DNA of 64,000 nucleotides from Alphaproteobacteria bacterium (GTDB lineage Bacteria; Pseudomonadota; Alphaproteobacteria; SMXQ01). The stretch covers positions 972 to 64,971 of the forward strand of contig JAWWBR010000002.1 of the NCBI GenBank assembly GCA_033720855.1. Direction: 5' to 3'. Of this stretch, positions 26,330 through 41,137 are shown one piece after another; positions within the stretch are counted from its first letter, which is position 1, and every line of letters starts with the position of its first letter. The notes below the pieces were generated by a model. The model saw only the letters and a program-made list of their open reading frames with translations, searched no databases and had not been told where the DNA came from. The position numbers and the translations under genes are program-made.

Positions 26330-27157
26330 ATGACACACACCGCGGGGAGGCCGACAATGACCGCCAGTCCGATTCGCTATCTCGCGTTCCTCAGCGACGA
26401 TCCGGGAGCGCTCGCCGATTTCTACGCGGGCCATTTCGGCCTTGACGAGCTGGGCCGCTCCAATGAAGGCGACGTCTCGCTGAGCGATGGATTCTACAAC
26501 ATCACATTCCTGCGCCGACGCCCGGATCTTCAGGAATTGCACACCGATACCGGTCTCCACCATGTGGGCCTGCAGGTCGACGACATCGGCGAAGCGACCC
26601 GGGCCTACCTGCGCACGGTGCCCGACGGGGTCATCATAGGTGAACGCGGCGGCCTGCATTTCGGCGAACGCCGGTTTTTCGATCCCGAGTGCAATCCGGT
26701 GACGGTCTCGACCGGCAGCTTCGGGGCGCCCGAGAAGCGTGATCCGAGGCTGCCACGGATCGCCCATATCGCGCTCAATGCGCTGATCCCCCAGCGCATG
26801 CTCGAGTTCTATTCCGCGGTCTTCGGATTCCGCGAGGTCAACACCAGCCTCACCTACCGGGAGCGCGGACGCCTCAACCGCTTTGCCGGCGACGGCGTGA
26901 CCAATCTCGCCATCCACCCGTTCTACAACGACTCCGTCGGCCACGAGGCGCGCTACGGGGTCAACCATTTCGGCTTCCTGGTCGACGATATCGAGCGCAA
27001 GCTGGACGTTCTGTCAAAGGAGATCGAAATCGCGGCTCGGCCGGAAGACCGGCCGTTTGCCGAATACCGGCTGTTCGACCCCGAAGGCAACAAGTTCGAC
27101 CTCTCCCAAAACAAAGGCTGGGAGGTCGACGTCGACAAATGGGATACCGCGGCATGA
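26330..27157 (+). CDS. Two-domain VOC (glyoxalase/bleomycin-resistance/extradiol dioxygenase) family protein.
   Basis: ORF 26330..27157. Two repeated VOC modules each contain LHHVGLQVDD / NHFGFLVDD motifs. Confidence 0.75.
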   Translation: MTHTAGRPTMTASPIRYLAFLSDDPGALADFYAGHFGLDELGRSNEGDVSLSDGFYNITFLRRRPDLQELHTDTGLHHVGLQVDDIGEATRAYLRTVPDGVIIGERGGLHFGERRFFDPECNPVTVSTGSFGAPEKRDPRLPRIAHIALNALIPQRMLEFYSAVFGFREVNTSLTYRERGRLNRFAGDGVTNLAIHPFYNDSVGHEARYGVNHFGFLVDDIERKLDVLSKEIEIAARPEDRPFAEYRLFDPEGNKFDLSQNKGWEVDVDKWDTAA

Positions 27158-28209
27158 GCACCGAGCTGGAAGGGGGCGCGGCCAACTGCGTCATCGATTG
27201 CGCCGGTGTAAACAAGGATACCCGGCTGTTCGTCGTCAGCGAAACCGGCGCCGTGGACGAGGCGGTCGCCGATGCCGTGGAGCGGGCGGGCCGCGATGCA
27301 GGTGCCCGGGTCGAGACCGTCTGGGTCGACCCCATCCCCAAGGAGACGCCCGATGCCATCCCCGAGGCGGCGCTCACCGCCTATCGCGAGGGCGACATCG
27401 TCATTTCCCATTTCCCCTCGCTGACCCGGGAGGCGCTCCATCCCCATTTCCCCGGCGAGACCCGGGTGCGTGTTCCCAACCGGGCACGGACGGTAGAGCT
27501 GCTGTCATCCGAGTGGGCTCGATTTCCCTACGGGGTGCAGCTTGCCTTGGCCACAAGGCTGCAGGAAAAGATGACGCCGGGTAAATCCTGGCGAATCACC
27601 AGCCCCGCGGGGACCGACCTCAGGGGCGTCTTTGGCGGCGCCGGCGGCCTGGTGGGATCGGCGTTCTTCGTCGACGGCGGCGAGACGGGCAGGGCGCGCA
27701 AGAACTTCCCCGGCGGGGTCCACGACCCGCGCGCCTCAGCCGAGTTGGACGGCGTGCTGATCGTGGAATACATGGATCACGTCGAACAGTCCGAGGACGA
27801 CCCGCCCTTGCGGCTCGAGATCAAGGACTGCCGTATCACGGAAATCACCGGCGGCGCGGAGGATGGCCGCCTGCGCGACGCCATCGCCGCCAGCGACGGC
27901 TGGATCGATTCCTGGCATGCCGGCGACAACCCGTGCACCCTGACACCGGTGACGCGGGGGAAAAACAGCCGCTCCTGGTTTGGCTACGGCCACTGCAGTC
28001 CGGCGATCATGCACTATCACTTGGGCCGCACCCATGAGACCACGAACCTGGCGTCGTTCGACCATACCCTGGTGGTCGACGGCGAGACGCTCTACCAGGA
28101 TGGGCAGCTTGGCCCCGATTTGCTCGAGGACGCCATAGTGGCCGATGCCATCAAGGCCGCGGAAGTCAGCGACGACATGCTGGCGACCCGGCCGATGCCC
28201 ATGTGGTAG
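27154..28209 (+). CDS. AmpS/NicX (COG2309, M29-aminopeptidase-like; 2,5-dihydroxypyridine dioxygenase-like) family protein. The assignment is tentative.
   Basis: ORF 27139..28209. The ATG at 27154 overlaps the upstream stop as ATGA. The family call is from recalled similarity only. Confidence 0.45.
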   Translation: MSTELEGGAANCVIDCAGVNKDTRLFVVSETGAVDEAVADAVERAGRDAGARVETVWVDPIPKETPDAIPEAALTAYREGDIVISHFPSLTREALHPHFPGETRVRVPNRARTVELLSSEWARFPYGVQLALATRLQEKMTPGKSWRITSPAGTDLRGVFGGAGGLVGSAFFVDGGETGRARKNFPGGVHDPRASAELDGVLIVEYMDHVEQSEDDPPLRLEIKDCRITEITGGAEDGRLRDAIAASDGWIDSWHAGDNPCTLTPVTRGKNSRSWFGYGHCSPAIMHYHLGRTHETTNLASFDHTLVVDGETLYQDGQLGPDLLEDAIVADAIKAAEVSDDMLATRPMPMW

Positions 28210-28217
28210 GCGGCGGC

Positions 28218-29963
28218 CTATTCCATTCTTTCGAGATTGCCGAGACGCAGCACCGCCTCGGTGACGATCTGCACGTCGCGGAGCAGATTGCTCAGCAGCT
28301 TGAACTCGTTGGGTTTATGGGCGCGGCCCCTCTGCCCGGGCACCCCGGGCCCGAACTGCACGCCGTTGGGAAGCTGACGCGCCGAGGTATAGCCGTTGGA
28401 TGACCGCGGCTTGGCGTCGATCCCGCTCACCTCGCGGAAGGTCACAAGCAGGTGTTGGATCCACGGCCCCTTGGGATCGCGATACATGGGTCGTTTGATC
28501 TTGACGCTGATGGATACGTCGGTCCCGGTGCGCCGCTTCCAGGTATCGAGCGCGCGCCTGATCTCGTCAACCAGCTGATCTCGATCCTTGCCACGGGGTG
28601 CGCGCGGATTGACCACAAGATGTAGCGCGCCGTCTTTGACCTTCACGTAGGTGACCGGCGTCGTCAGCGCCCCCATGAAGGGATCGGAATATCCGATACC
28701 GAGCTTTCCGCCGTGATAGTTCAGGCCCCAGTTGTCCGAGACATAGGCGGCGGCATCGGTGAAATGGTTGCGTTTGAGGGGCGCCGCGCGGCGCACCTGA
28801 TGGAGGAAATCGAACAGCCTGGAAACCGGATTGACGCCGCGCGACGGGCGCGCCGAATGGGCACCCTCGCCGAAAACCGTGAGCCTGACGCGATCGCCCT
28901 CGACCCGGGTTTCGATCTTGAAGTTCGCGCCATTGGCGGCGACGTAGCGCGCCGCCAGTGGGTCGAGGGCGCGTTTCAGGGCCGGCGCGTCGGCGGCCGC
29001 GATCACGGCCAGGGCCTCGGCAGGGATCTGATTGAAAACCACGCCGCCGGTAGCGTGGAGGATCTCGCCACCGGGGCCCGATCCCTTGCGCACCGGAAAC
29101 TTCGCCATAACGATCCCGAAGCCCTTCTCCGCGACGCCCACGGGATAGCGTCCGTCCAGCACCAGGTTGTAGGGCGCCAGGGTGGTCTTGGTCTTGTAGT
29201 ACTCGGTCGCCGAACCCCCTGTTTCCTCCGTGGTCTCTATCGCCAGGCGGATGGTCTTGGAGGGGATGAAGCCTTCCCGCTTGATGGACCCGAGCACATA
29301 GAGCGCGGCGGCGATGGAACCCTTGTTATCGGAGGCCCCGCGGCCGTACATGCGATCGCCCATCACCGTCAGTTTGAACGGATCCAGCTTCTTTCCATCC
29401 CTGAGCAACCACTTGGCAGGGTTGACGGGAACCACATCGGAATGGGTGAAGATGCCGATCGAACCGGATCCTGTTCCCTTCAGGGTGACTTCGAAAATGC
29501 GGTTATCGAAGTTGCGGAAGGCGAGGCCGAACTTTCGGGCGACCGCTTCGATGGCCCTGCCCATACGGTGGATGTTGGGATTGTCGTGCTGAGCCAGGTT
29601 CTCCTTCTTGTCGGTGGGGATGGCAACGAACCGGGCGAGCGTCGCGATGAGCTCATCGCGGTATTTGATCCGGGTGTAAAGCCCAAGCAAGCGATACAGA
29701 TTGACCCGGTCGGCATCGTCGAGGGCCGCCTTCGTCTGACGCCGGTCAAGGGCCCGGGCCAGGCCGTCGTGCGCCAGTCCCGGCCGCAGGTCTTTTGCGA
29801 AGGTAGCGAAATCCCGTGGGCGCGTCGCGGAGACGCGCTGCAGCAGTTCTTCCAAGCCGGCCTTCTGGATGACCTCCTGTGCGGACGTGGAACCGGGCAG
29901 GGCGGTCAAAAGGGATGCCACCCCCAGAGAACACAGGAATAGTCGAGACAATCTCTTGCCCAT
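28218..29963 (-). CDS. Secreted M20-family metallopeptidase (Sapep/dipeptidase-like).
   Basis: ORF 28218..30038 on the - strand. The start is likely MGKRLSRLFL... (codon 29961-29963) with a GGGGGAT RBS. M20 motifs HSDVVP and GASDNKG are present. Confidence 0.8.
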   Translation of the reverse strand: MGKRLSRLFLCSLGVASLLTALPGSTSAQEVIQKAGLEELLQRVSATRPRDFATFAKDLRPGLAHDGLARALDRRQTKAALDDADRVNLYRLLGLYTRIKYRDELIATLARFVAIPTDKKENLAQHDNPNIHRMGRAIEAVARKFGLAFRNFDNRIFEVTLKGTGSGSIGIFTHSDVVPVNPAKWLLRDGKKLDPFKLTVMGDRMYGRGASDNKGSIAAALYVLGSIKREGFIPSKTIRLAIETTEETGGSATEYYKTKTTLAPYNLVLDGRYPVGVAEKGFGIVMAKFPVRKGSGPGGEILHATGGVVFNQIPAEALAVIAAADAPALKRALDPLAARYVAANGANFKIETRVEGDRVRLTVFGEGAHSARPSRGVNPVSRLFDFLHQVRRAAPLKRNHFTDAAAYVSDNWGLNYHGGKLGIGYSDPFMGALTTPVTYVKVKDGALHLVVNPRAPRGKDRDQLVDEIRRALDTWKRRTGTDVSISVKIKRPMYRDPKGPWIQHLLVTFREVSGIDAKPRSSNGYTSARQLPNGVQFGPGVPGQRGRAHKPNEFKLLSNLLRDVQIVTEAVLRLGNLERME

Positions 29964-30074
29964 CGCATCCCCCGTTATGACGCGGTTCTCCATGATCACG
30001 GCTGCGGGCCTGGGCGCCGGAAAAAAGGGCCGGGGCAAATGCCGCCGGCCCCTCTTTTCAAGGCGGCGATCGTT

Positions 30075-31304
30075 TTATGACTTGCAGTCGATTGTCTTGG
30101 CTTCGAACCGCCCGTTGCGGTCCGCCGCCGTGACCGTGCAAGCCATCCCGGCTTTCAGCGCCTTGCGCTTGCCCTTGGCGCCATTGATCATGATCTTGCT
30201 GCGGGACTTGGAGACCCGCACCTTCTTGCCGCCGATCTCGAGCACCCGGCCGCCCTTCTTGACCGAGACCAAATTTCCCTTGAGCTTATCGACGGGAACC
30301 GCCATCAGGCCCTTGAAGCGGGCGACGACGCTTTCCGGCGCATTCAGCACCTGGGCATAGATCTTGACCATGTCCTCGCCGCTGGTATAGCCGATCGAGC
30401 GGCGCGCCTTTTTGGCTTCGGCGAGCAGGTCCTTGTCCTTCAACGCGTCGCGGAAGGCCACGCGCAGCGCCTTCAAGACATCGGGCTTGAGGCCAGGCGG
30501 CCCAAAGAATGGCCGGCCGGCAATGTCTTGTCCGCCGGCAAAGGCGGCCAGCGCCGCACCGTTCTTGCTCATCACCTCGGTCGCCTGCTCGGCGCCGTCG
30601 GTTTCCGGATGGTAGCCCATGCGGCCGAGGATGGTGAGCTTCTCGTCCCTGATGAAGGTGCGCAGGCTCTCGTAGCTGCCGCTGGTGGCCTCGACGTCCC
30701 CGCGGGCGATGGCCAGAACTTTTTCCTCGCTGCCGTCGTATCCGGTTATGACGCGGACGGGATAGCCGTCCACCTCCAGCAACTTGACCCTCTGGTAGGA
30801 GGCGCTGCCGCGGCCGGTGCCCGAAAACTTGATCTCGCCTTTATAGGTCTTGAGTTGGGTCAGGGATTTCACCGGATGATCGCCCTTGATCACCCAGACC
30901 CAGGTTGACGCGGTGGTCGAGCCGATCGGGTTCAACTTGGCCACGTCATACTTGATACCGGGCTCGTTCAGTTTCTGGGCCAATGTCACGCCGCGGGTCA
31001 GGATCGCGATCACGGTGCCGTCCCGCTTGGCCCGATTCATCAGGTAATTGGCGGCAACGATACCGCCGGCGCCCGACATGTTGGTGGCAATCGATCTCGG
31101 CTTGCCCGGCAGGTACTTGGGCATGTGCCGCGCGATCAAGCGACCGTAGAAGTCATAGCCTCCGCCGGGGCTAGAGCGGATGACGACGTTGAAGGTCTTG
31201 CCTTTCCAACTGGGACCGGCGGCCGCCGCCTGGTCGACGCACAACGCGCCGAGGCCGATTACGGCTCCAAGACCGAGGCTTAAAAAGACCGATTTCCTTG
31301 ACAT
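30075..31304 (-). CDS. tctC: Tripartite tricarboxylate transporter substrate-binding protein (TctC/Bug family) with an extra C-terminal domain of about 75 aa ending ...AGMACTVTAADRNGRFEAKTIDCKS.
   Basis: ORF 30075..31304 on the - strand. A signal peptide is present. The Bug-family core motifs (IRSSPGGGYDFYGRLIARHM..., AGGIVAANY) are present. It sits immediately downstream of tctB and tctA. Confidence 0.8.
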   Translation of the reverse strand: MSRKSVFLSLGLGAVIGLGALCVDQAAAAGPSWKGKTFNVVIRSSPGGGYDFYGRLIARHMPKYLPGKPRSIATNMSGAGGIVAANYLMNRAKRDGTVIAILTRGVTLAQKLNEPGIKYDVAKLNPIGSTTASTWVWVIKGDHPVKSLTQLKTYKGEIKFSGTGRGSASYQRVKLLEVDGYPVRVITGYDGSEEKVLAIARGDVEATSGSYESLRTFIRDEKLTILGRMGYHPETDGAEQATEVMSKNGAALAAFAGGQDIAGRPFFGPPGLKPDVLKALRVAFRDALKDKDLLAEAKKARRSIGYTSGEDMVKIYAQVLNAPESVVARFKGLMAVPVDKLKGNLVSVKKGGRVLEIGGKKVRVSKSRSKIMINGAKGKRKALKAGMACTVTAADRNGRFEAKTIDCKS

Positions 31305-31389: not shown

Positions 31390-31878
31390 CTAATCCCATC
31401 CCAACATTTCGAACACCACGCCCGGCGGGAAGGGAAGGTGCAGCAGGTTGTTGAACAGCAGCCAAGTCGCTCCTCCGGCGACCACCGGCATGGCAATGGT
31501 GACAACCCACCCCTCGCGGTGCCGCAGGAGATACAGGAATACCATCACCGGAATGGCGACGAAAAAGCCCAGAACCCAGAGGGCAAAGCCGAAGGCATAA
31601 ACCCAGACAAACAGTTCGAAGGCCCGCTTTCTGCCCTCCACGGAAGCTTCTTCCTCGGTGAAATCGACGTCGGCGCCGGTCTCACGGGATTCCGGGGTCT
31701 GTGAGAAAAACACCTCGCGCACGATCTGCCAGGTCAGTAGCGCAAGGGCGATGATGGCGATCGTATAGGGGTAGAGGCGCGCCTGCTCCGGCATGTCCTT
31801 CGACTCGTAAAGCACATAGGCGAAGACGATGATGAAGAATACGGTCAGCAGCGAGCGAATCTGGAGACGGATTCCCAT
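31390..31878 (-). CDS. tctB: Tripartite tricarboxylate transporter TctB small membrane subunit.
   Basis: ORF 31390..31878 on the - strand. The product has four TM helices and lies between tctA and tctC. Confidence 0.75.
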   Translation of the reverse strand: MGIRLQIRSLLTVFFIIVFAYVLYESKDMPEQARLYPYTIAIIALALLTWQIVREVFFSQTPESRETGADVDFTEEEASVEGRKRAFELFVWVYAFGFALWVLGFFVAIPVMVFLYLLRHREGWVVTIAMPVVAGGATWLLFNNLLHLPFPPGVVFEMLGWD

Positions 31879-31879
31879 G

Positions 31880-33376
31880 TCAGACCTCCACGTTCCGCTC
31901 GAAGCGTTTTGAGAACCTGTCCTGCCACAGCGGGTAGGCGACGCTCGCCACCAACAGGGCGAAGATCACCAGAACCCCCGGCCGGAACAGGAACCCGAAG
32001 CCATAAAGCTGGACCGAGGTCCACATATAGCGTTCAGCGATGGGGCCCAGAACCAGGCCCAAAAGCAGCGGCGGACGCGGCCAACCGGCCATCCGCATGA
32101 AATACCCCAGGGTCCCGAAGGCGATCATCACCAGGATGTCCTCGAAGCGCCCGGATGCGGCGAAGCTGCCGATGACCGCCATCGCCAGGATCATCGGAAT
32201 CATCAAGGTGGGACGCAGTTTGGTCGCCATCGCCAGCTGCCGTGTGAAGGCCAGACAGAGGATCGAGGTCAGCACGCTGCCGATCAGCAGAAGCCAGATC
32301 ATGGAGAACGTGACGTCGAGGTCCTTGGTCAGCATGTCCTTGCCCGGCGTGATGCCGACGATGATCAAACCGCCGAAGATCAGGGCCAGGGTACTGGAAC
32401 CGGGGATACCGAAGGCGAGGGTCGGGATCAACGACCCGCCCTCCTTGGCATTGGTCGCGGCGTCGACGCCGATCACGCCGCGCACGTCGCCGGTGCCGAA
32501 GGTTTCCCGCGCCCCCTTGCAGGTTTGCTTGGCGTGGCCGTAGGCGAACCAGTCCGCGACCGAAGAGCCCAGGCCGGGAATGATGCCGACCCAAACGCCG
32601 ATAAAGCTGCAGCGGAGAATCAGCCACCAGTGCTTGAAGGCATCCTTGATTCCCTGCCGCCGCCCGGTGGTGAGGTCACCCAGAGGAACGTCGGAGATTC
32701 CGGTCCCCTTGCTCGCCATGTAGAGCATTTCCGGAATGGCGAACAGGCCAATGGTCATGGGGACCAGCTTGATGCCGTCGACCAGGTAGAGCTGATCGAA
32801 GGTAAAGCGATGGATGCCGGTCAGGATATGCACCCCGATCATCGATATCGCCAGGCCGAAGGCGCCGACGATGATGCCCTTGACCGGGGCCTTTCCGGAA
32901 AGGGCGCCGACCATGGCGACGCCGATCATGACCAGCATGAAGAATTCAGGCGGGCCCAGCAGAAGCACTAGAGGCCGGAGCACGGGGATCGCAGCCAACA
33001 GCACGATGGCGCCGATGATGCCGCCGATGGCCGAGGAGGTGAAGGCCGCGGCCAGCGCCCGCGCCGCCTCGCCCTTCTTGGCCATGGGATAGCCGTCCAT
33101 GATGGTCGCCTGGGAGCCACCCCCGCCCGGCACGCTGAACAGGATGGAGGTAATCGAATTGGCGGTGTTGCTGACCGCCCAGATGCTGACGATGAGCGCC
33201 ACCGCCTCGAATTTGTTGAGAACGAAGGCAATGGGCAGAAGCAGGGCAATGGCGGTCTTCGAACCGATGCCCGGCATCGCCACCAGGGTGGAGCTGATGA
33301 CGATGCCGAACATCATCAGCAGAAATGCCTTCCAATGGAGTATGCCCAACAGGCCTTCGATGGCAGCTTCAATCAC
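31880..33376 (-). CDS. tctA: Tripartite tricarboxylate transporter TctA large permease subunit.
   Basis: ORF 31880..33376 on the - strand. The 498-aa product is a multi-TM protein with the TctA (DUF112) pattern. Confidence 0.9.
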   Translation of the reverse strand: MIEAAIEGLLGILHWKAFLLMMFGIVISSTLVAMPGIGSKTAIALLLPIAFVLNKFEAVALIVSIWAVSNTANSITSILFSVPGGGGSQATIMDGYPMAKKGEAARALAAAFTSSAIGGIIGAIVLLAAIPVLRPLVLLLGPPEFFMLVMIGVAMVGALSGKAPVKGIIVGAFGLAISMIGVHILTGIHRFTFDQLYLVDGIKLVPMTIGLFAIPEMLYMASKGTGISDVPLGDLTTGRRQGIKDAFKHWWLILRCSFIGVWVGIIPGLGSSVADWFAYGHAKQTCKGARETFGTGDVRGVIGVDAATNAKEGGSLIPTLAFGIPGSSTLALIFGGLIIVGITPGKDMLTKDLDVTFSMIWLLLIGSVLTSILCLAFTRQLAMATKLRPTLMIPMILAMAVIGSFAASGRFEDILVMIAFGTLGYFMRMAGWPRPPLLLGLVLGPIAERYMWTSVQLYGFGFLFRPGVLVIFALLVASVAYPLWQDRFSKRFERNVEV

Positions 33377-33587: not shown

Positions 33588-34382
33588 ATGGAGCTCAACA
33601 CCGAGAAGATGCTCGCCGAAAAGGAAAACGGCATCGGTTGGATGACCTTCAATCAGCCCGAGCGGCGAAATGCCATCTCCCACGAGATGCGCGAGGCGAT
33701 CCTCACCATCCTCGACGATTTCGAGGCCGATCCCGCGGTCCGCGTGATTGTCATGACCGGCGCCGGCGACAAGGCGTTCGTCTCCGGCTCCGACATCTCC
33801 CGTGGGGAAAAGGGCGAGGCAACGCCGGAGCAGCTTGAACGGCAGGGCCAGCTCTCGAACCTGGTCCGGGACCGGTACCTCAGCCTGAACAAGCCGCTGA
33901 TCGCCATGATCCGCGGCTACTGCCTGGGCGGCGGAGTGGCGACGGCGCTCTATGCGGATCTCCGCATCGCCGCCGAAGATGCCCAGTTCGGCATCCCGGC
34001 GGCCAGGCTCGGCAATGCCTATAATTGGAGCTATACGCGCATGTTGGTGGATATCGTCGGCGCCGCGCGAGCCAAGGAGATCCTGATCACTGCGCGCCGC
34101 TACTCGGCCGCGGAATCGCTCCAGATGGGCCTGGTGCACCAGGTCGTGGCGCCTAACGCGCTTGAACAGACGGTACGGGACATCGCCGCGGCTATCGTCG
34201 ACAACGCGCCGCTCTCGGTCATCGCCGCAAAGGCGATGATCGACGAAATCGTGAAGGATCCCGATGCGCGCGACATGAATAGGGTCCGTGCCGTCCGCAA
34301 GGCCTGTATCGAAAGTGCCGACTTCGCCGAGGGCCGGCGCGCATTCAACGAAAAGCGCAAGCCGGTCTGGACCGGGACCTGA
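33588..34382 (+). CDS. Enoyl-CoA hydratase/isomerase (crotonase) family protein.
   Basis: ORF 33588..34382. The crotonase fold motifs are VIVMTGAGDKAFVSGSDI ... GYCLGGG. Confidence 0.85.
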   Translation: MELNTEKMLAEKENGIGWMTFNQPERRNAISHEMREAILTILDDFEADPAVRVIVMTGAGDKAFVSGSDISRGEKGEATPEQLERQGQLSNLVRDRYLSLNKPLIAMIRGYCLGGGVATALYADLRIAAEDAQFGIPAARLGNAYNWSYTRMLVDIVGAARAKEILITARRYSAAESLQMGLVHQVVAPNALEQTVRDIAAAIVDNAPLSVIAAKAMIDEIVKDPDARDMNRVRAVRKACIESADFAEGRRAFNEKRKPVWTGT

Positions 34383-34463
34383 GGCGGACGGCCGGGCGAC
34401 GCGCCAATCGAAAGGGGCGGCTACCTCAGAGCCGCCCCTGTACATTTTGTCTTTATTTTCAGC

Positions 34464-35486
34464 CTATTGCATCAGCTTCTTGAACTGCGCCATGACCATG
34501 TCCGATGCGCCGAGGATGTCCAGATTGGTCTTGCGCATTTGCTCCGGGTCGGTCGGCGATATGCCCTTCCGCGCCTTCTTGGCCTCGGCCAGCAGCTTCG
34601 GATCCTTGAGCGCGGCCGCGAACGCCGCCCGCAGGATCTTTACCCGGTCGGCAGGAACGTTGGGGGCCGTGTAGAAGGGGCGCCCCGCCTCCAGCGGCGC
34701 CACCAGCAGGCTGGCCAGGGAGCGCCGCTCGGCCGAGACCACGTCGCGCAGATCAACGAGATCGCGCGGCAGCTCGGGGTGATCGGCCCCGAGCTTGCCG
34801 ATGATCTTGAATTTTTCCTCTTTGATCGCCGTGCGCATGGTTTCGTAGCTGCCGGCCGTCATCTCGACCTCGCCGCGGGCCACCGAAAGCACCTTTTCGC
34901 CCGTCGAGCCGTAGCCGGTGATGATCCTCATGGGATAGCCGTCCAGTTTCATCACCATCGAGCGCTGATAGGCGCCGCCGCCGGGCCCCGTGGTGCCGAC
35001 CTTGATCTCCCTTCCGCCGCGTTTGATGTCCTTGAGAGAGTTCAACGCCGAAGTCTGCGCGACAAGGAACACCGCCGTGCTGGACGCGGTGCTGCCGAGC
35101 GGAATCAGATTGCGGACATCGTATTTGACGCCTTTGTTCTTGCTTCTCTGGACGACGGCGATGGCACGGCTCAGGATGGCGATCTCGGTGCCGTCCCGCT
35201 TGGCCCGGTTGTGCATGTAATTGGCCGCAACGATACCGCCCGCGCCCTTCATGTTGATGGGGATGGAATTGGGATTGCCGGGAATATGGCGCGGCATGTG
35301 GCGCGCCATCAGGCGGCCGTAGAAATCATTGCCGCCGCCGGGGCTCGACCGGATGATCACTTTGAGGGTTTTGTCCTTGTAGAAATCCTCCGCCGCCATC
35401 GCCGGCGCCGGGTCAGCAAGCATGGCGGTCGTCGCCAAGGCCGCACAGGTCATCGTGGTCGCAAACGATCGTTGCCAAAATCTCAT
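34464..35486 (-). CDS. TctC/Bug-family periplasmic substrate-binding protein with no C-terminal extension.
   Basis: ORF 34464..35576 on the - strand. The start is likely MRFWQRSFATT... (codon 35484-35486). The Bug core motif is IRSSPGGGNDFYGRLMARHM. Confidence 0.8.
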   Translation of the reverse strand: MRFWQRSFATTMTCAALATTAMLADPAPAMAAEDFYKDKTLKVIIRSSPGGGNDFYGRLMARHMPRHIPGNPNSIPINMKGAGGIVAANYMHNRAKRDGTEIAILSRAIAVVQRSKNKGVKYDVRNLIPLGSTASSTAVFLVAQTSALNSLKDIKRGGREIKVGTTGPGGGAYQRSMVMKLDGYPMRIITGYGSTGEKVLSVARGEVEMTAGSYETMRTAIKEEKFKIIGKLGADHPELPRDLVDLRDVVSAERRSLASLLVAPLEAGRPFYTAPNVPADRVKILRAAFAAALKDPKLLAEAKKARKGISPTDPEQMRKTNLDILGASDMVMAQFKKLMQ

Positions 35487-35694
35487 GAGTCCGCCTCTCT
35501 GCCTAGTGTGATGGGCGATACCGCCCGATAATGCTTTACGCTTGTTGTTCGTCAAAGCATGAGCGCTCGGCGCCATCCTGTCAACGACCCCAGCGCGCGT
35601 CCCTAGACAGCTCTGACCGTCGCCTGTAGCCTAACCGCCAATACCCGACCGGCCATCAAGGCCCTGAGGCAAGGGATCAACACGGAGCAACGCC

Positions 35695-36906
35695 ATGGCT
35701 ATCCCGCCGCCGTCGACCGCCCTCAACGGGCTGACCGTCCTCGACATGACCCAGGCCCGCGCCGGCCCCGTCTGCGTCCGCCAGCTTGCCGACTGGGGCG
35801 CCAACGTGATCAAGATCGAGAGGCCCGGCGACCCGCCCGATTGGGCCGGGCGTTATGAGGCGGATTTCCAGAGCAAGCATCGTAACAAGCGTTGCATGGT
35901 GCTCGACCTCAAAAGCAAGGAGGGCCGAGCGGTTCTCGATCGGATGGTGGCCAAGGCCGATGTCGTGGTCGAGAATTTCCGGCCGGCGGTAAAGGAGCGG
36001 CTGGGCTTCGATTACGATTCGCTGGCCAAGATCAATCCCCGCATCATCCTTGCCAGCATCTCCGCCTTCGGCCAGGACGGCCCGTACAAGGACCGGCCGG
36101 GCCTCGACCAGATCGTCCAGGGCATGTCCGGGTTCATGTCGGTGACCGGCGCCCCCGGCGGCGGGCCCATCCGCGCCGGCATCGCCATCGCCGACGTGGC
36201 GGCGGGCCTGTTCTGCGCCCTCGGCATCCTCACCGCGCTATACGAACGCGAGCGCTCGGGCCGCGGCCAGTGGGTGCAGACCTCGCTGATGGAGGCGCTC
36301 CTGTCGATGATGGACCTCCACGCCGCGCGGTATCTCATCAACGATATCGTGCCCGAGCAAGTCGGCAACGAGCATCCCACCGGCGTGCCCACCAACACCT
36401 ACAAGACCTCGGACGGGTATGTCAGCATTTCGATCATGCCGCGCATGTGGCCCGACCTTTGCCGCGCCATCGAGCGCGAGGATGCCGCCGAAGACCCCAG
36501 GTTTGACACCCGCGAGGCGCGCCGCGCCCATCGCGAGGAGTGCAACGGCATGATCGCCGAAGCCATGGCAAAATTCACCACCGAGGAAATGCTCGAACGG
36601 CTCGCCGCCAGCGATATTCCGTCCGGGCCGGTCTATACCATCGACCAGACTTTCGCCGATCCGCAGGTCCAGCACCTCAACCTGGCCCAGGAGCTCAACT
36701 CTCCCTCCATGGGCGATTTCCAATTGCTCTCACAGGCGTTCCGGCTCAGCCGCACGCCCACCGGCAACTGGTCGGGAATCCCCGAATATGGCGAGAACAC
36801 CGAAGAGGTGCTGGCCGAGTTCGGCTTCTCCGAGGAGGAGATCGTCGAGCTGGAACGCAACGGGACCGTGACCTCTCAGGGAACGGCGACGGCCGAGGCG
36901 GGATGA
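35695..36906 (+). CDS. Family III CoA-transferase (CaiB/BaiF/Frc-like).
   Basis: ORF 35695..36906. The N-terminal LNGLTVLDMTQARAGP and VENFRP motifs are typical. Confidence 0.85.
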   Translation: MAIPPPSTALNGLTVLDMTQARAGPVCVRQLADWGANVIKIERPGDPPDWAGRYEADFQSKHRNKRCMVLDLKSKEGRAVLDRMVAKADVVVENFRPAVKERLGFDYDSLAKINPRIILASISAFGQDGPYKDRPGLDQIVQGMSGFMSVTGAPGGGPIRAGIAIADVAAGLFCALGILTALYERERSGRGQWVQTSLMEALLSMMDLHAARYLINDIVPEQVGNEHPTGVPTNTYKTSDGYVSISIMPRMWPDLCRAIEREDAAEDPRFDTREARRAHREECNGMIAEAMAKFTTEEMLERLAASDIPSGPVYTIDQTFADPQVQHLNLAQELNSPSMGDFQLLSQAFRLSRTPTGNWSGIPEYGENTEEVLAEFGFSEEEIVELERNGTVTSQGTATAEAG

Positions 36907-36951
36907 AACCACACCGCTTTACAGGCTGACGGGTTTCAGCCGGCCTTTTCC

Positions 36952-37725
36952 TCAGGCGATGGTGACGTAGCGAGCGCCGTTGACGTGCAGCATCTGGCCG
37001 CTCATGTATCGGCACCCGCCGGCACAGAGGTAGAGCGCCAAGTCGGCGATTTCCTCCGGCTCGGCGGAGCGGCCCATGGGGCTGTCGCCGCGGCCAGTGC
37101 GGTGCTCGTTGCGGTCGCCGCTGGGCTTTTTCGCCGTATCCACGCGGCCCGGAACGATGCAGTTCACGGTGATGTTATGGGGGGCGAGCTCGGCCGCAAG
37201 CGCCCCGGTCATCCCCGCGATCCCGGCCTTGGCGGTGGCGACGTGGCAGCGGTTGGCAACGCCCGAATGGCCGGACCCGCCACCGATGTTGACGATGGTC
37301 CCGCCGCCGCGCTCGATCATGTGCGGCGCGCAGTTCTTGACGCAGAAGAAGAAGCCGTCGAGCGAGGTCTCCATGGTCGCCCGCCACTCCTCGGCCGTGA
37401 GTTCGGGCAATGGACGATAGCTGCGGATATTGGCGTTGTTGACAAGGATATCCACGCCGCCGAAGCGCGAGACCGTCTCCGCCACCATGGCCTCGACCTC
37501 GTCGAATTTCCGTATATCGGCACAGTGGGAGAGGGCGCTGCCGCCGTCGGCCTCGATCTCGCTGACGGTCGCTGCCGCCGCCTCGGCGGAGGTCAGGTAG
37601 TTGACGACCACGCTGGCACCGGCACCCGCCAGCATCTTCGCGATGACGCTGCCAATATTCTGGGCGGCACCCGTGACAATGGCGACTTTACCGTCGAGAC
37701 CGGTCCCGTAATCCCGAACACTCAT
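36952..37725 (-). CDS. SDR-family oxidoreductase (3-oxoacyl-ACP reductase-like).
   Basis: ORF 36952..37725 on the - strand. The TGAAQNIG Rossmann motif and the catalytic motif region are present. Confidence 0.85.
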   Translation of the reverse strand: MSVRDYGTGLDGKVAIVTGAAQNIGSVIAKMLAGAGASVVVNYLTSAEAAAATVSEIEADGGSALSHCADIRKFDEVEAMVAETVSRFGGVDILVNNANIRSYRPLPELTAEEWRATMETSLDGFFFCVKNCAPHMIERGGGTIVNIGGGSGHSGVANRCHVATAKAGIAGMTGALAAELAPHNITVNCIVPGRVDTAKKPSGDRNEHRTGRGDSPMGRSAEPEEIADLALYLCAGGCRYMSGQMLHVNGARYVTIA

Positions 37726-37916
37726 GGCCTGTCATCCGCAGGTTCGAACGCGCGGTTGCGCGGAAGGTCGGGTTTGTGATCGGGCATTTCTCGGCCTCCA
37801 ACTCTTGGCTGTTGCGGGCGGTTCCGGTACCGCCGCCGTTGACACTGGCCAAACAATAGCAGGAATTGGCCTGACGGCCACGATGCGCGGCGCCGGACGC
37901 GGCAAGCGCCCGATCG

Positions 37917-38735
37917 TCATTTCCGCGTAAACAGCCGGTTTTTCGCGCCGCCCTCCACACGCGCCGCGGGCGAGAGGCCGGCTTGCTCCAGCAACGGGAC
38001 GATCTCACCGTCGAAGCGCGCGCGATTGCGGCCTTCGACCTCGATGATCACGCTGCGCGCCCCACCGAGCACCTTCGCCGCCCCCTTCAAAATCGGGATT
38101 TCGATACCGTCGACATCCAGCTTGACATGGGCCGGCGGCGGCAGATCGAAGCGCTCCACCAGGTCGTCGGCGGCATAGGCGAGGACCGCTTGGCGAAAGC
38201 GCGGCTCGAAGGCCGAGAACTGGCTCTCGGGCTGCCCGATGGTGCTGAAGGCGTGACCCGGCTCGAAGCCGCTCATGAACAGCGCCGTGGCTTCGCTGCG
38301 TTCGCCGAGGGCGAGGCAATAGGGGGCCAACCGGTCGCCCAGACCGTTCAACTCCGTATGGGCGACCAGCAGCCCGAAATTGATCCCGCTCGGCTCGAAG
38401 GCAAGGACCTCGGCCCCGGCTTTGGCGGCGTAACAGGAAAAAATCCCGACATTGGCGCCGATGTCCCAAAGCACGTCCCCCGCCGCGACTTGGTCATCGA
38501 TCCAGGCGATGGTCTCCGGTTCGTCCTGCTGAAAGGTGTGGAGGGCGCTCGCCGCCGCCGCGCCCAGATTGGAGTAGAATCTGATCGGGCCATGTGGGGT
38601 CTCTACGGTATGGACCGACGCGCGGTCGAAGTGATCGCGCACGCGGGCATAGACCCGCGCCCTCTGCCGCGCCGAGGTGGGCAGGGTAATCATCCGGGCG
38701 AAGCCGGCAACCAGGCTTGCCAGCGTCCGGCTCAC
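37917..38735 (-). CDS. FkbM-family methyltransferase.
   Basis: ORF 37917..38735 on the - strand. DIGANVGIFS, FEP and the LKLDVDGIE motifs are present. Confidence 0.75.
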   Translation of the reverse strand: MSRTLASLVAGFARMITLPTSARQRARVYARVRDHFDRASVHTVETPHGPIRFYSNLGAAAASALHTFQQDEPETIAWIDDQVAAGDVLWDIGANVGIFSCYAAKAGAEVLAFEPSGINFGLLVAHTELNGLGDRLAPYCLALGERSEATALFMSGFEPGHAFSTIGQPESQFSAFEPRFRQAVLAYAADDLVERFDLPPPAHVKLDVDGIEIPILKGAAKVLGGARSVIIEVEGRNRARFDGEIVPLLEQAGLSPAARVEGGAKNRLFTRK

Positions 38736-38871
38736 GGGCGCCAGCCGATCACGCGATCGGTCCAGTGCCCGACCGCGCGCCAGGCGGGGTGTAGCGTCAT
38801 TGCCAGCCTCCCGAGATCAAGCTTCTGGGCGTAGTTCCCAGGGGCCGCCCGCATCGATCGCGGAGCCCGGG

Positions 38872-39615
38872 TCAGCCCAAATGCTTGGCGAAGAACGCAA
38901 AGACCTTTTCCCAGCCGTCCTGGGCCTGCTCGTAACGGTAGCGCCCCGCGGCGTAATTGAAGAACGCGTGGCCCGCATCGTCGTAGCGGTGAAACTCGTA
39001 GTCCTTTCCCTGGGCCTTCAGTTCCGCCTCGATCCTGTCGACCTGCTCGGTGTCGGGATTGCCGTCGTCATTGCCGAACAGGCCCAGCAGCGGCACCGAG
39101 ATCTCCGGCGTCATGTCGATCGGAGCGACCGGCTGATTGTCGTTCAGCTTTGCCGGCGGCGACGTCACGTTGCCGCCCCAGCAGTCCACGGCGCAGTCAA
39201 GCCCCGGCATCTTCGCTGCCGCCATATAGGCGACCCGGCCACCGGAGCAGAAGCCGATCAGCCCGATCTTTCCGTTCGAGGTGGGAAGGTCACGGAGATA
39301 AGATTCGCCGCCGGAGAGATCGTCGATGACGAATTCGTCGATCTGGCCGCCCATTTCCCGGACCCGATCCGCCTTCTCCGAAGGGGTACCCGGCCCTTGA
39401 CGAAAATGCAGGTCCGGCGACACCGCGTTGTAGCCGTGATGGGCGACCTTGCGCACCACCTCCCGGGTCCATTCGTCCCATCCCGGCATATGATGGACGA
39501 CGATCACGCCGCCGAGCGGACCGGCGCCGAGCGGCCTCGCCGCGTAGGCATCGATCAATTCCCCGTCATGGCCGTGGACCCGAACGGTCTCGGCGATCAT
39601 TCCCTCATAGGACAT
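38872..39615 (-). CDS. Dienelactone hydrolase family protein.
   Basis: ORF 38872..39690 on the - strand. The start is likely MSYEGM (codon 39613-39615) with a GGAGGGA RBS. The GFCSGG nucleophile motif is present, and the DLH fold ends in DAGHAF. Confidence 0.8.
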   Translation of the reverse strand: MSYEGMIAETVRVHGHDGELIDAYAARPLGAGPLGGVIVVHHMPGWDEWTREVVRKVAHHGYNAVSPDLHFRQGPGTPSEKADRVREMGGQIDEFVIDDLSGGESYLRDLPTSNGKIGLIGFCSGGRVAYMAAAKMPGLDCAVDCWGGNVTSPPAKLNDNQPVAPIDMTPEISVPLLGLFGNDDGNPDTEQVDRIEAELKAQGKDYEFHRYDDAGHAFFNYAAGRYRYEQAQDGWEKVFAFFAKHLG

Positions 39616-39820
39616 CGATCTTTTCCTCCCTCCAAGCTTTGGATATTCCCCACAGCATGATAAGCGCGCGCCACCCTTGCAAGGGAGCAAAAAAGCTCGA
39701 CCGCGATGGGCAGTTGAACCCCTTGCTGTGGTCGGCTAGCATCCCCTCCGAAATGTCGTCGACCGCTCAAGCTCAGAAACAATGGGTTGCGGTCTGGTTT
39801 TTTCAACACGGGAGACTCGA

Positions 39821-41137
39821 ATGTTTTCTATCCCCATAAAATCGGGAGGGCTCGGCGCCCTTGCTTTATCTACAGTGATTGCCACGGGCTTCGGCGCCGG
39901 CATGGCCGGCACCGCCGAGGCCGTGAACTTCAAGGGCAAGACCATCACGGTCGTGATCGGCTACGCCGCCGGCGGCGGCTACGACCGCTATGGCCGCCAG
40001 GTGGCACGCCACATCGGCCGGCATCTGCCGGGCAACCCCCAAGTCATCGCCCAGAACCGGCCCGGCGCCGGCAGCTACAAGGCGGTCAACTACATCTATC
40101 ACCAGGCGCCCAAGGACGGCACCGTATTCGGCACCTTCGCCCGCTCGGTTCCGATTCTGTCGTTTGCCGGCAAGCTGAAACAAGCGGACTTCGACCCGCG
40201 CAAACTGACCTGGATCGGCACCTCCTCGAGCTATAAGGGGGAGAGCTATCTGATGGTGGTGCGCAAGGATACGGGCATCAAGTCCATCGAGGATATGCAG
40301 AAACTCAAGAAGCCGCTCAACTTCGCGGCCACCTCGTTCGGTTCCGACGGCACCGACGTGCCGATCATTCTTAAGGACATCCTTCGCATCAACGTTCAAC
40401 CCTTGCGCGGCTATCCCGGCGGCAACACCCTTTACCTCGCGGTCGAACGCGGCGAGGCTCAGGCGCGGATGGTCGGCTACGCCTCGATGAAGACGGCGAT
40501 GCCGCACTGGCTCGACCCCGCCAAGACCCCGATCCGCGTGGTTTTGCAGTTCGCTACAAAGACGCGTCTGCCGGAATTTCCTGACGCGCCGACAGCGCGG
40601 GAACTGATGACCAATCAGGCCGACCGGGACCTTATCGAAATGCTCGAGGCCCCGTTCTTCATGGCCCGGCCCTTCGCGGGGCCTCCGGGGCTGAAACCCG
40701 ACGTGACGAAGGCGCTGCGCAAGGCGTTCATGGACGCCCATGCGGATCCCCTATATATCGCCGAAGCCAAGAAGGTTCGGCTTCTCACCAGCCCGTCCGA
40801 CGGAGAGACCGTGCAGAATCTCGTCGAAGAGCTGGGCAAGAAGCCGCGGGCCCTCTACGACCGCTACTCTAAGCTCCTCGCAAACCCGAAATCGCCGGTT
40901 CGCCAGGTCCAGTGGCAGACCGTCACCGGAACCATCACCAAGGTCAACAAGCGCGGCAGCAAGTTCTCGATCAAGGTCGACGGCAAGGTTCACAATGGTC
41001 GCATGCGCGGCCGTTACACCAAGGCCAAGATCGACGGCAAGAAGGCCAGCCGCAAGAAGATCAAGGCCGGCATGACCTGCACGATCAAGTGGGAAGGCCC
41101 GAAGAGCTACGCTGGGGAGATGGACTGCAAGTCCTAA
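39821..41137 (+). CDS. TctC/Bug-family substrate-binding protein with a C-terminal extension homologous to that of the gene at 30075-31304 (...KAGMTCTIKWEGPKSYAGEMDCKS).
   Basis: ORF 39782..41137. The start is likely MFSIPIKSGG... (39821). A signal peptide and the Bug core are present. Confidence 0.8.
   Translation: MFSIPIKSGGLGALALSTVIATGFGAGMAGTAEAVNFKGKTITVVIGYAAGGGYDRYGRQVARHIGRHLPGNPQVIAQNRPGAGSYKAVNYIYHQAPKDGTVFGTFARSVPILSFAGKLKQADFDPRKLTWIGTSSSYKGESYLMVVRKDTGIKSIEDMQKLKKPLNFAATSFGSDGTDVPIILKDILRINVQPLRGYPGGNTLYLAVERGEAQARMVGYASMKTAMPHWLDPAKTPIRVVLQFATKTRLPEFPDAPTARELMTNQADRDLIEMLEAPFFMARPFAGPPGLKPDVTKALRKAFMDAHADPLYIAEAKKVRLLTSPSDGETVQNLVEELGKKPRALYDRYSKLLANPKSPVRQVQWQTVTGTITKVNKRGSKFSIKVDGKVHNGRMRGRYTKAKIDGKKASRKKIKAGMTCTIKWEGPKSYAGEMDCKS

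What the first reader, a model, noticed from the sequence alone, without database searches (positions are those of the whole stretch)
30075..30300. Conserved Cys-containing C-terminal extension of about 75 aa on two of three TctC/Bug-family binding proteins
Bug/TctC proteins normally end right after the two-lobe solute-binding-protein fold at about 300-325 aa. The paralogs at 30075-31304 and 39821-41137 both carry an additional lysine-rich, beta-strand-like domain. Its conserved pattern is ...G.K(V/F).(V/I)K..G..V......R..K.KIDGK.A.RK.IKAGM.CT(V/I)........(A/G)..(I/M)DCKS, with two invariant Cys. The third paralog (34464-35486) lacks it. An appended domain shared by paralogs suggests a second function, such as tethering, partner docking or a disulfide-stabilised lid. 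It may define an undescribed subclass of TTT substrate-binding proteins.
Basis: seen in the sequence. Interest (0 to 1): 0.55.

Follow-up and report, generated by a model that had tools for sequence, protein, structure and literature searches.

The report
OB-fold tail on periplasmic binding proteins
Two of three TctC-like solute-binding proteins here end in a real, conserved, probably disulfide-stapled 75-residue OB-fold domain that also occurs alone and on an unrelated ABC-type binding protein in uncultured Alphaproteobacteria, and whose function is still unknown.

Summary
P1 (30075-31304, -) and P2 (39821-41137, +) carry a ~75-aa C-terminal domain that P3 (34464-35486, -) lacks. It is not an artefact. 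An exhaustive profile search found 585 representative proteins, and the tail is under purifying selection (dN/dS about 0.3). AlphaFold models it at pLDDT 91. The fold is an OB-type beta-barrel, not SH3/KOW; the nearest solved structures are PilY2, CusF/SilF and tRNA-synthetase or SSB OB domains. Pfam, NCBIfam and PDB sequence searches find nothing. A profile-profile comparison links it to DUF5666 repeats (97.9%, E 4e-13). The module is mobile. It occurs once or twice after a divergent TctC core, after an unrelated ABC-type SBP_bac_1 protein, and alone behind a signal peptide. It almost always sits at the extreme C-terminus, after a variable Lys-rich linker, and has exactly two Cys in 289 of 292 copies. 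Those are the only Cys in mature P1 and P2. All genome hits are MAGs, mostly Alphaproteobacteria, often in arrays of 2-5 paralogs. Function is inferred only: most likely an autonomous binding or adaptor module, not part of the solute cleft and not specific to TctAB. I rate it a new variant of a known kind, of moderate interest.

The parts
30078..30293 (-). P1 C-terminal OB-fold tail (residues 338-409; six predicted beta-strands; ends ...TIDCKS)
30294..30308 (-). Short linker (LMAVP) between the last helix of the P1 core and the tail
   Evidence: Across homologs the spacer from core end to the beta1 Gly is 7-36 aa, median 16, with 20% Lys.
30138..30140 (-). P1 Cys389 codon, first invariant Cys (GM.C motif, start of the penultimate strand)
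   Evidence: Invariant in 292 non-redundant tails. Position checked.
30084..30086 (-). P1 Cys407 codon, second invariant Cys, three residues from the C-terminus (end of the last strand)
   Evidence: The two Cys lie on the two strands of the final predicted hairpin.
30309..31217 (-). P1 mature TctC-like two-lobe solute-binding core (residues about 30-332)
   Evidence: Pfam TctC 45.4 bits against a cut-off of 27. Foldseek best matches are TphC, TBP, Bpro_3516 TctC, BugD and others, E 2e-16 to 1e-12.
31218..31304 (-). P1 N-terminal signal-peptide-like segment (residues 1-29; judged by eye, low pLDDT)
   Evidence: Sequence. pLDDT is 48-58 for residues 1-30. No signal-peptide predictor was available.
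40904..41134 (+). P2 C-terminal OB-fold tail (QVQWQTVTGTITKV...EMDCKS), with Cys420 (41078-41080) and Cys436 (41126-41128)
   Evidence: HMM match 89.5 bits. BLASTP against the P1 tail gives E=4e-7.
39821..40903 (+). P2 signal peptide plus divergent TctC-like core and linker. This is an orphan gene with no tctAB next to it.
   Evidence: The family core HMM gives E 3.5e-105. Pfam TctC scores only 25.5 bits, below the cut-off of 27.
34464..35486 (-). P3, a tail-less paralog of the same TctC-like subfamily. It stops 3 residues after the core.
   Evidence: Its ortholog in the syntenic locus L091 is also 340 aa and tail-less.
31390..31878 (-). tctB (162 aa), immediately upstream of P1 in the same orientation
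   Evidence: Pfam TctB E 3.4e-14. The same order is found in L091.
31880..33376 (-). tctA (498 aa), large membrane subunit, first gene of the tctA-tctB-P1 run
   Evidence: Pfam TctA E 9.4e-120.

Best explanation
Shown: the tail is an independently folding, extracytoplasmic OB-type beta-barrel of about 72 residues. It belongs to an uncurated, divergent branch of the DUF5666 / CusF-like group of small barrels. It is a mobile module with several architectures. It occurs as a stand-alone secreted protein of about 90-100 aa. It occurs as one or two C-terminal copies on a divergent TctC-like subfamily. It also occurs at the C-terminus of an unrelated ABC-type (SBP_bac_1) binding protein. It almost always sits at the very C-terminus, joined to the core by a variable, Lys-rich linker. 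Inferred: the two invariant Cys sit on the two strands of the last hairpin, are the only Cys in mature P1 and P2, and the protein is exported, so they most likely form a stabilising disulfide. Inferred: the core still does the normal TTT job of binding a solute (probably a carboxylate) and delivering it to TctAB, encoded next to P1. The tail is most likely a separate binding or adaptor module. Through its conserved S-G-S-R-T loop and invariant Arg, it would attach the binding protein to a partner common to the periplasm or envelope of these bacteria, for example an envelope polymer, a membrane surface or a channel protein. This would localise or concentrate binding proteins regardless of transporter class. 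My confidence in the identity and anatomy is about 0.9. My confidence in the adaptor function is about 0.35.
Against: No partner has been identified, and no binding, localisation or oligomerisation data exist. Gene neighbourhoods of the stand-alone forms show no recurring partner. By my own reasoning (no tool), a simple two-residue hairpin register would put C389 opposite residue 406, not 407. P1 has only a 5-residue linker and high linker pLDDT (87), so in this clade the tail may be rigidly packed rather than flexible. The tail was lost repeatedly, so its contribution may be small. The basic charge tracks the core's charge (r=0.82), so it cannot be used as evidence for binding an anionic partner.
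Confidence: 0.55

Rival explanations
1. The tail is a second ligand site. It would be a CusF/SilF-like periplasmic chaperone or capture module that binds a metal ion or a small anion through the conserved SGSRT loop, the Arg or the Cys pair, and hands it to or regulates the attached binding protein. The precedent is the CusF-like C-terminal domain of SilB.
For: Apart from PilY2, the closest compact solved structures are CusF (TM 0.65-0.71), SilF and the SilB C-terminal domain. There are weak single-member Pfam hits to CusF_Ec (E 0.049) and DUF1344 (E 0.094). The related DUF5666 repeat proteins also score on CusF_Ec. The Ser/Thr/Arg/Lys-rich loop is conserved even where the rest of the surface turns acidic. 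Stand-alone forms imply an autonomous activity.
Against: The CusF ligand set (His, two Met, Trp; from my own knowledge) has no counterpart here. Only one Met is conserved, and no His or Trp column is conserved. The two Cys are on neighbouring strands of an exported protein and are the only Cys, which fits a disulfide better than a thiolate site. No metal-resistance genes lie nearby.
Confidence: 0.2
2. The tail is a self-association module. It would dimerise or cluster binding proteins, or link them to the stand-alone OB proteins, raising local concentration or allowing cooperative delivery.
For: An S-layer self-assembly domain (9fs9) is among the structural matches. The relatives are multi-repeat DUF5666 surface proteins. 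Tandem double tails and free-standing copies exist in the same lineages, and genomes carry many tailed paralogs.
Confidence: 0.15
3. The tail is a docking aid specific to the TTT membrane subunits TctA/TctB. It would help the many orphan binding proteins compete for one shared transporter.
For: P1 is encoded directly after tctA-tctB. Most tailed paralogs are orphans that must share a TctAB. One stand-alone copy lies between tctA and a tailed tctC (L082).
Against: The same domain sits on SBP_bac_1 proteins inside an ABC-transporter operon and occurs alone in loci with no transporter operon. Tail-less paralogs of the same subfamily coexist, and one (P3) lies next to the same tctAB cluster. TctA (498 aa) and TctB (162 aa) here have ordinary lengths and no extra domain that could act as a receptor.
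Confidence: 0.1
4. The tail has no specific partner. It would be a passively retained stabilising or solubilising appendage, or a selectively near-neutral domain accretion, in a lineage with expanding binding-protein families.
For: The tail was lost repeatedly and cleanly without loss of the gene. Constraint is more relaxed than on the core (dN/dS 0.31 against 0.16). Its charge simply follows that of the core.
Against: Conservation is strong and position-specific, including apparently surface-exposed polar residues, across sequences of 30-40% identity and three architectures. It was recruited independently onto two binding-protein families and duplicated in tandem. It is maintained as a stand-alone gene.
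Confidence: 0.1

Closest known systems
TTT (tripartite tricarboxylate transporter) solute-binding proteins: TctC / Bug family (PF03401). Solved examples are TphC, TBP, BugD, BugE, Bug27, AdpC and MatC.
   Same: P1's core has the same two-lobe fold (Foldseek E 2e-16 to 1e-12, about 20% identity). It passes the Pfam TctC threshold and is encoded next to tctB and tctA. Large families of mostly orphan paralogs resemble the Bug expansions (the comparison is from my own knowledge).
   Different: All solved members end at the binding fold (288-302 residues). P1 and P2 add an OB domain. The subfamily is divergent: P2 and P3 fall below the Pfam cut-off. All three proteins are strongly basic.
DUF5666 (PF18914), repeated small beta-barrel domains of secreted or surface proteins, function unknown
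   Same: Profile-profile match at 97.9% probability, E 4.4e-13 over 63 of about 66 columns. The strand pattern and the 'T.I...G.....L..G..V.V.Y' core motif are shared. Both are extracytoplasmic.
   Different: The Pfam model does not detect the tail. The tail has its own signature (SGSRTK, KR..LK.GM.C, C-terminal D-C-K) and a fixed Cys pair. It occurs as a single terminal copy on transporter binding proteins rather than in long repeat arrays.
CusF / SilF periplasmic metallochaperones and the CusF-like C-terminal domain of SilB
   Different: There is no significant sequence match (best single-member E 0.049). No His/Met/Met/Trp site is conserved. No metal-efflux genes are nearby.
PilY2 (PA4555, PDB 3tdq)
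   Different: Identity is 11-14% and the match is by fold only. PilY2 is a type IV pilus biogenesis protein, and no pilus genes are near the tail-bearing genes.
Binding domains permanently attached to their transporter or membrane: lipoprotein SBPs of Gram-positives and SBDs fused to GlnPQ/OpuA permeases (from my own knowledge)
   Same: The concept is the same as the proposed function, namely keeping a binding protein near where it is needed instead of letting it diffuse freely.
   Different: Those use a lipid anchor or a covalent fusion to the permease. Here the candidate tether is a soluble OB domain with an unknown target, in a diderm periplasm. This is an analogy only.

Membership tests
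TTT solute-binding protein (TctC/Bug, PF03401) | Match to the Pfam TctC model above its gathering score | tested here: met
   P1 scores 45.4 bits against a cut-off of 27. P2 (25.5 bits) and P3 (22.2 bits) fall just below. They match the P1-family core HMM at E 3.5e-105 and 2.9e-138.
TTT solute-binding protein (TctC/Bug, PF03401) | Two-lobe binding-protein fold closest to solved TTT SBPs | tested here: met
   The full-length AF2 model has pLDDT 91.3. The top 17 Foldseek PDB matches are all TTT SBPs (TphC, TBP, Bpro_3516, BugE, BugD, AdpC, MatC, Bug27), E 2e-16 to 3e-12.
TTT solute-binding protein (TctC/Bug, PF03401) | Genetic linkage to tctA and tctB membrane subunits | tested here: met
   tctA (31880-33376), tctB (31390-31878) and P1 are in the same orientation. 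The order is conserved in L091. P2 and P3 are orphans, as are most family members.
TTT solute-binding protein (TctC/Bug, PF03401) | Binding of a carboxylate solute and delivery to TctAB | not testable with these tools
   A P-G-G-G-Y-D loop resembles the Bug carboxylate-clamp motif that I recall from the BugD literature. No ligand or transport test was possible.
DUF5666 (PF18914) | Match to the Pfam DUF5666 model | tested here: not met
   There is no DUF5666 hit at E<=1 for the two window tails or for any of 26 aligned tails.
DUF5666 (PF18914) | Homology to bona fide DUF5666 repeats at profile level | tested here: met
   hhalign of the tail profile against 48 repeats, gathered from a Pfam-labelled DUF5666 unit, gives probability 97.9%, E 4.4e-13 over 63 columns. 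The tail is best described as a superfamily relative, not a member of the curated family.
OB fold | Small closed beta-barrel superposable on known OB domains | tested here: met
CusF-type metallochaperone (PF11604) | Match to the CusF model and a conserved His/Met/Met(+Trp) metal site | tested here: not met
   Only 1 of 26 tails gives a sub-threshold hit (E 0.049). Column conservation shows one conserved Met and no conserved His or Trp. The resemblance is in fold only.
Disulfide-stabilised periplasmic domain | Two Cys close enough to bond, in an exported protein | tested here: inconclusive
   Both Cys columns are invariant and 289 of 292 tails have exactly two Cys. They are on adjacent antiparallel strands and are the only Cys of mature P1 and P2. 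The redox state is not testable here.

The most novel reading that the evidence does not exclude
A lineage-specific periplasmic 'address tag'. In this reading, a small disulfide-stapled OB domain is free-standing in some genomes and fused to binding proteins of two unrelated transporter classes (TTT and ABC) in others. It would dock these proteins onto a common envelope receptor such as an outer-membrane channel, peptidoglycan, a periplasmic glycan or the membrane surface. This would organise solute capture spatially in a diderm periplasm, as a soluble-domain counterpart of the lipid anchors and permease fusions used by monoderms.
Probability: 0.2. Interest if true: 0.75.

Novelty: new variant of a known kind. 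Interest (0 to 1): 0.5.

Why it matters
Binding proteins of TTT, TRAP and ABC importers in diderm bacteria are usually treated as freely diffusing single-fold proteins. Here the same small OB module has been attached, sometimes twice, to two unrelated binding-protein families. It has been kept under purifying selection through large paralog expansions in uncultured Alphaproteobacteria. If it proves to be a localisation or clustering device, or a second ligand site, that would add a new layer to how high-affinity uptake systems are organised in oligotrophic bacteria. It would also give a first functional handle on the DUF5666-like barrels. In practical terms, it defines a domain family of more than 500 representative sequences that is missing from Pfam and NCBIfam, and it corrects annotations that call these proteins plain TctC or label fragments as 'ribosomal protein S1' or 'IS1 transposase'.

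Tried and rejected
- **Pfam** scans of the two tails and of 26 aligned tails gave nothing significant.
- **NCBIfam** gave nothing.
- A **PDB sequence-profile** search gave nothing below E 0.29.
- The **afdb50** fold library was not installed, so there was no survey of AlphaFold DB architectures.
I repeated it with six closer sequences. That scan sees only tails carrying AK[VI]SGSRTK or the ...EA..[VI]DC motif, so the taxonomic picture is biased toward one clade.
- **Literature** searches found no functional work for DUF5666, 'tripartite tricarboxylate transporter' plus OB-fold, or TctC plus C-terminal extension.
- **Split gene rejected.** L071 looked like separate core and tail genes, but the two ORFs overlap in different frames, which indicates a frameshift.
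- **Odd N-termini rejected.** Some short hits have unusual N-termini (P0215, P0218, P0183, P0157). I treated them as chimeric or fragmentary calls on contigs of about 500 bp.
- **Basic charge rejected as a tail-specific clue.** It correlates with core charge at r=0.82, and tail-less P3 is also +20.
- **Artefact or read-through rejected**.
- **NicX/M29 check.** The weak resemblance of the 356-aa ORF at 27139-28209 to a NicX/M29-like neighbour of the ABC fusion is only E 3e-4 in a single pairwise comparison.

Full report
**1. The observation**

The ORF list confirms three paralogous binding-protein genes. P1 is 30075-31304(-), 409 aa. P2 is 39821-41137(+), 438 aa. P3 is 34464-35486(-), 340 aa from the proposed start. 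Aligned together, the three share a core of about 330 residues. P3 stops there, while P1 and P2 run on for 77 and 87 residues and both end in DCKS.

The two tails match each other by BLASTP at E=4e-7 in a single comparison. A six-frame scan with family HMMs finds exactly three cores and two tails in the 64-kb window. Window 30078-30293(-) translates to VDKLKGNLVSVKKGGRVLEIGGKKVRVSKSRSKIMINGAKGKRKALKAGMACTVTAADRNGRFEAKTIDCKS.

**2. The tail is real and conserved**

A search with P1 returned an identical protein from an alphaproteobacterial MAG and 178 homologs. These fall into two length classes, about 407-434 aa and about 331-344 aa. In alignments, every long homolog carries the same tail, down to 30-35% overall identity. 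Invariant Gly, Arg, Gly, Cys and Cys columns are shared.

An exhaustive HMMER search of 1.84 billion representatives with a 26-sequence tail profile found 585 proteins at E<=1e-3 and 292 at E<=1e-10.

Against an ortholog whose synonymous sites are not saturated, dN/dS is 0.20/0.67, about 0.31, for the tail. It is 0.13/0.81, about 0.16, for the core. The tail is therefore translated and under purifying selection, somewhat more relaxed than the core.

**3. What the tail is**

Sequence libraries are silent. Pfam gave nothing significant for the two tails or for 26 aligned tails; the best single-member hits were CusF_Ec at E 0.049 and DUF1344 at E 0.094. NCBIfam gave nothing. The PDB sequence-profile search gave nothing below E 0.29.

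- PriB, SSB, MCM and RPA

Foldseek ranked PilY2 first (E 3.9e-4, TM 0.70). It then ranked CusF (TM 0.65-0.71), an S-layer self-assembly domain, SilF and a DUF1344 protein.

The exhaustive search also picked up multi-repeat secreted proteins (P0125, P0152, P0158, P0199, P0205, P0257). Pfam labels most of them DUF5666 and/or CusF_Ec-like; P0125 matches only CusF_Ec, and P0257's DUF5666 score is just below the cut-off. I collected 48 repeats from these proteins, starting from a Pfam-labelled DUF5666 unit. I then compared profiles. hhalign gives 97.9% probability, E 4.4e-13, over 63 columns. The tail is therefore a divergent, uncurated relative of DUF5666.

**4. Anatomy and distribution**

The module appears in several architectures.
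- **After a TctC-like core, once.** This is the commonest form.
- **After a TctC-like core, twice in tandem.** Examples are P0121, P0122 and P0126.
- **After an unrelated SBP_bac_1-type binding protein.**
  - P0185 sits inside an ABC-transporter operon with an ATPase and a permease.
  - Five further proteins are similar: P0200, P0231, P0241 and the ORFs in L065 and L075.
- **Alone behind a signal peptide, as genes of 87-104 aa in the middle of contigs.**
  - Examples are P0177, P0188, P0191, P0204 and P0223.
  - Others are P0310, P0312, P0313, P0315, P0316, P0320, P0323 and L082 2240-2650.
- **Cys-less stand-alone relatives.** P0324 and P0325 are examples.

I also analysed 292 non-redundant tails.
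- 289 have exactly two Cys, and both Cys columns are invariant.
- The domain ends within one residue of the protein's C-terminus in 276.
- The best-conserved positions, with the fraction of tails carrying the residue, are S39 0.97, T43 0.92, G49 0.99, R54 0.96, K58 0.89, G60 1.00, M61 0.91, C63 1.00, A74 0.90 and C79 1.00.
- The spacer between the core's last helix and the first-strand Gly varies from 7 to 36 residues, median 16, and is 20% Lys.

Mature P1 and P2 contain only two Cys each, both in the tail. In the models these lie on the two strands of the last hairpin.

A neighbour-joining tree of 140 complete cores shows a strictly binary state. A protein has either a tail of 77-105 aa (167-198 aa with two copies) or 0-6 residues after the core. 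Tailed and tail-less clades interleave, which implies repeated loss or gain.

In a syntenic contig, the P1 ortholog keeps the tail and the P3 ortholog lacks it. There the genes run in the order DLH, SDR, CoA-transferase, P3 ortholog, ECH, tctA, tctB and P1 ortholog.

A motif-based scan of one genome per GTDB species found 78 loci, all in MAGs. Nearly all are labelled Alphaproteobacteria, Rhodospirillales, Hyphomicrobiaceae or Xanthobacteraceae. Many loci hold arrays of 2-5 adjacent tailed genes. Only about 14 of 78 have tctA within 4 kb.

**5. The core**

P1 passes the Pfam TctC threshold and lies directly after tctA and tctB. Its full-length model (pLDDT 91.3, pTM 0.78) matches TphC, TBP, Bpro_3516 TctC, BugD, BugE, AdpC, MatC and Bug27 at E 2e-16 to 3e-12 and about 20% identity. 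All of those chains are 288-302 residues and have no tail. P2 and P3 fall just below the Pfam cut-off, but they clearly belong to the same subfamily.

**6. Charge**

The tails are very basic, with a median net charge of +15 (P1: +15 in 72 residues). The cores are basic too (P1 +16; tail-less P3 +20). Tail and core charge correlate at r=0.82, and some lineages have acidic tails. Lysine-richness is therefore a feature of the lineage or of the whole protein. It is not evidence for what the tail binds.

**7. Mechanism**

The following is shown. The tail is an exported, autonomous OB-type module with an invariant Cys pair and a conserved polar or basic loop. It can be moved between binding-protein families. 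It is dispensable for membership of the TTT family.

The following is inferred.
- The Cys pair forms a structural disulfide.
- The tail does not belong to the solute cleft and is not a TctAB-specific device. It works on an ABC-type protein and on its own, and tail-less paralogs coexist beside the same tctAB.
- The tail most likely binds a partner common to the periplasm or envelope, and so localises or clusters binding proteins.

I give the adaptor reading about 0.35. The rivals are:
- a second ligand or metal site, as in CusF and the SilB C-terminal domain, about 0.2
- self-association, about 0.15
- TctAB docking, about 0.1
- a passive appendage, about 0.1

None could be tested directly.

**8. 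Novelty and verdict**

The tail is present in orthologs, and it is not a known TctC domain. I found no curated model and no paper for it.

It is best filed as a new variant of a known kind: a TTT binding protein (and also an ABC one) with a DUF5666-related OB tail. Interest is moderate (0.5). The architecture and its spread across transporter classes are new and well supported, but the function remains open.

Noticed in passing
window 28218-30038 (-): A 606-aa M20-family peptidase with a signal-peptide-like N-terminus starts 37 bp downstream of the P1 stop, on the same strand. It may be co-transcribed with tctA-tctB-P1. It is absent from the otherwise syntenic locus L091. It may hint at the P1 substrate, for example an amino-acid derivative.
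   Followed up: partly
window 27139-28209 (+): A 356-aa ORF has no Pfam match. It shows a weak pairwise resemblance (24% identity over 237 aa, E 3e-4) to a NicX/M29-like gene that neighbours the ABC-type tailed binding protein in L004. A 350-aa gene without Pfam hits lies immediately after the P1 ortholog in L091.
   Followed up: partly
window 30309-31217 (-), 34464-35486 (-), 39821-40903 (+): All three binding-protein cores are unusually basic (net +16, +20 and +16). Across 183 homologs the mean core charge is +14.6. I would expect periplasmic binding proteins to be closer to neutral. The reason is unexplained.
   Followed up: partly
L013, L027, L042, L044, L068 (whole loci): These loci hold arrays of four adjacent tailed TctC-like genes within about 8 kb, in alphaproteobacterial MAGs. 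Most have no tctAB nearby. This is a Bug-like paralog expansion made of tailed proteins.
   Followed up: partly
L001 9387-10811; L004 5380-6738; L005 692-2050; L070: MmgE/PrpD-family genes sit next to tailed binding proteins of both classes, TctC-type P0093 and ABC-type P0185. This may reflect a shared substrate class or may be coincidence.
   Followed up: no
L082 2240-2650; proteins P0320, P0323: A stand-alone sub-type has four Cys (…SGSRTNVC.KG.CDEDR…GM.C…SCK), which suggests a second disulfide. In L082 it lies between tctA and a tailed tctC.
   Followed up: no
proteins P0323, P0292: Public annotations of tail-only sequences look wrong. JGI calls P0323 (101 aa) 'ribosomal protein S1', perhaps because S1 domains are also OB folds. 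NCBI calls the 61-aa fragment P0292 'IS1 family transposase, partial'.
   Followed up: no
L071 2944-4222: The core and tail of a tctC next to tctA-tctB lie in overlapping ORFs in different frames. This is a frameshift, from either a sequencing error or a pseudogene, and not a natural split gene.
   Followed up: yes
window 33588-39690: The tail-less P3 is embedded among catabolic genes: enoyl-CoA hydratase, family III CoA-transferase, SDR, FkbM-type methyltransferase and dienelactone hydrolase. Apart from the methyltransferase, this set recurs with P3's ortholog in L091. This suggests a CoA-dependent acid degradation pathway served by this transporter cluster.
   Followed up: partly
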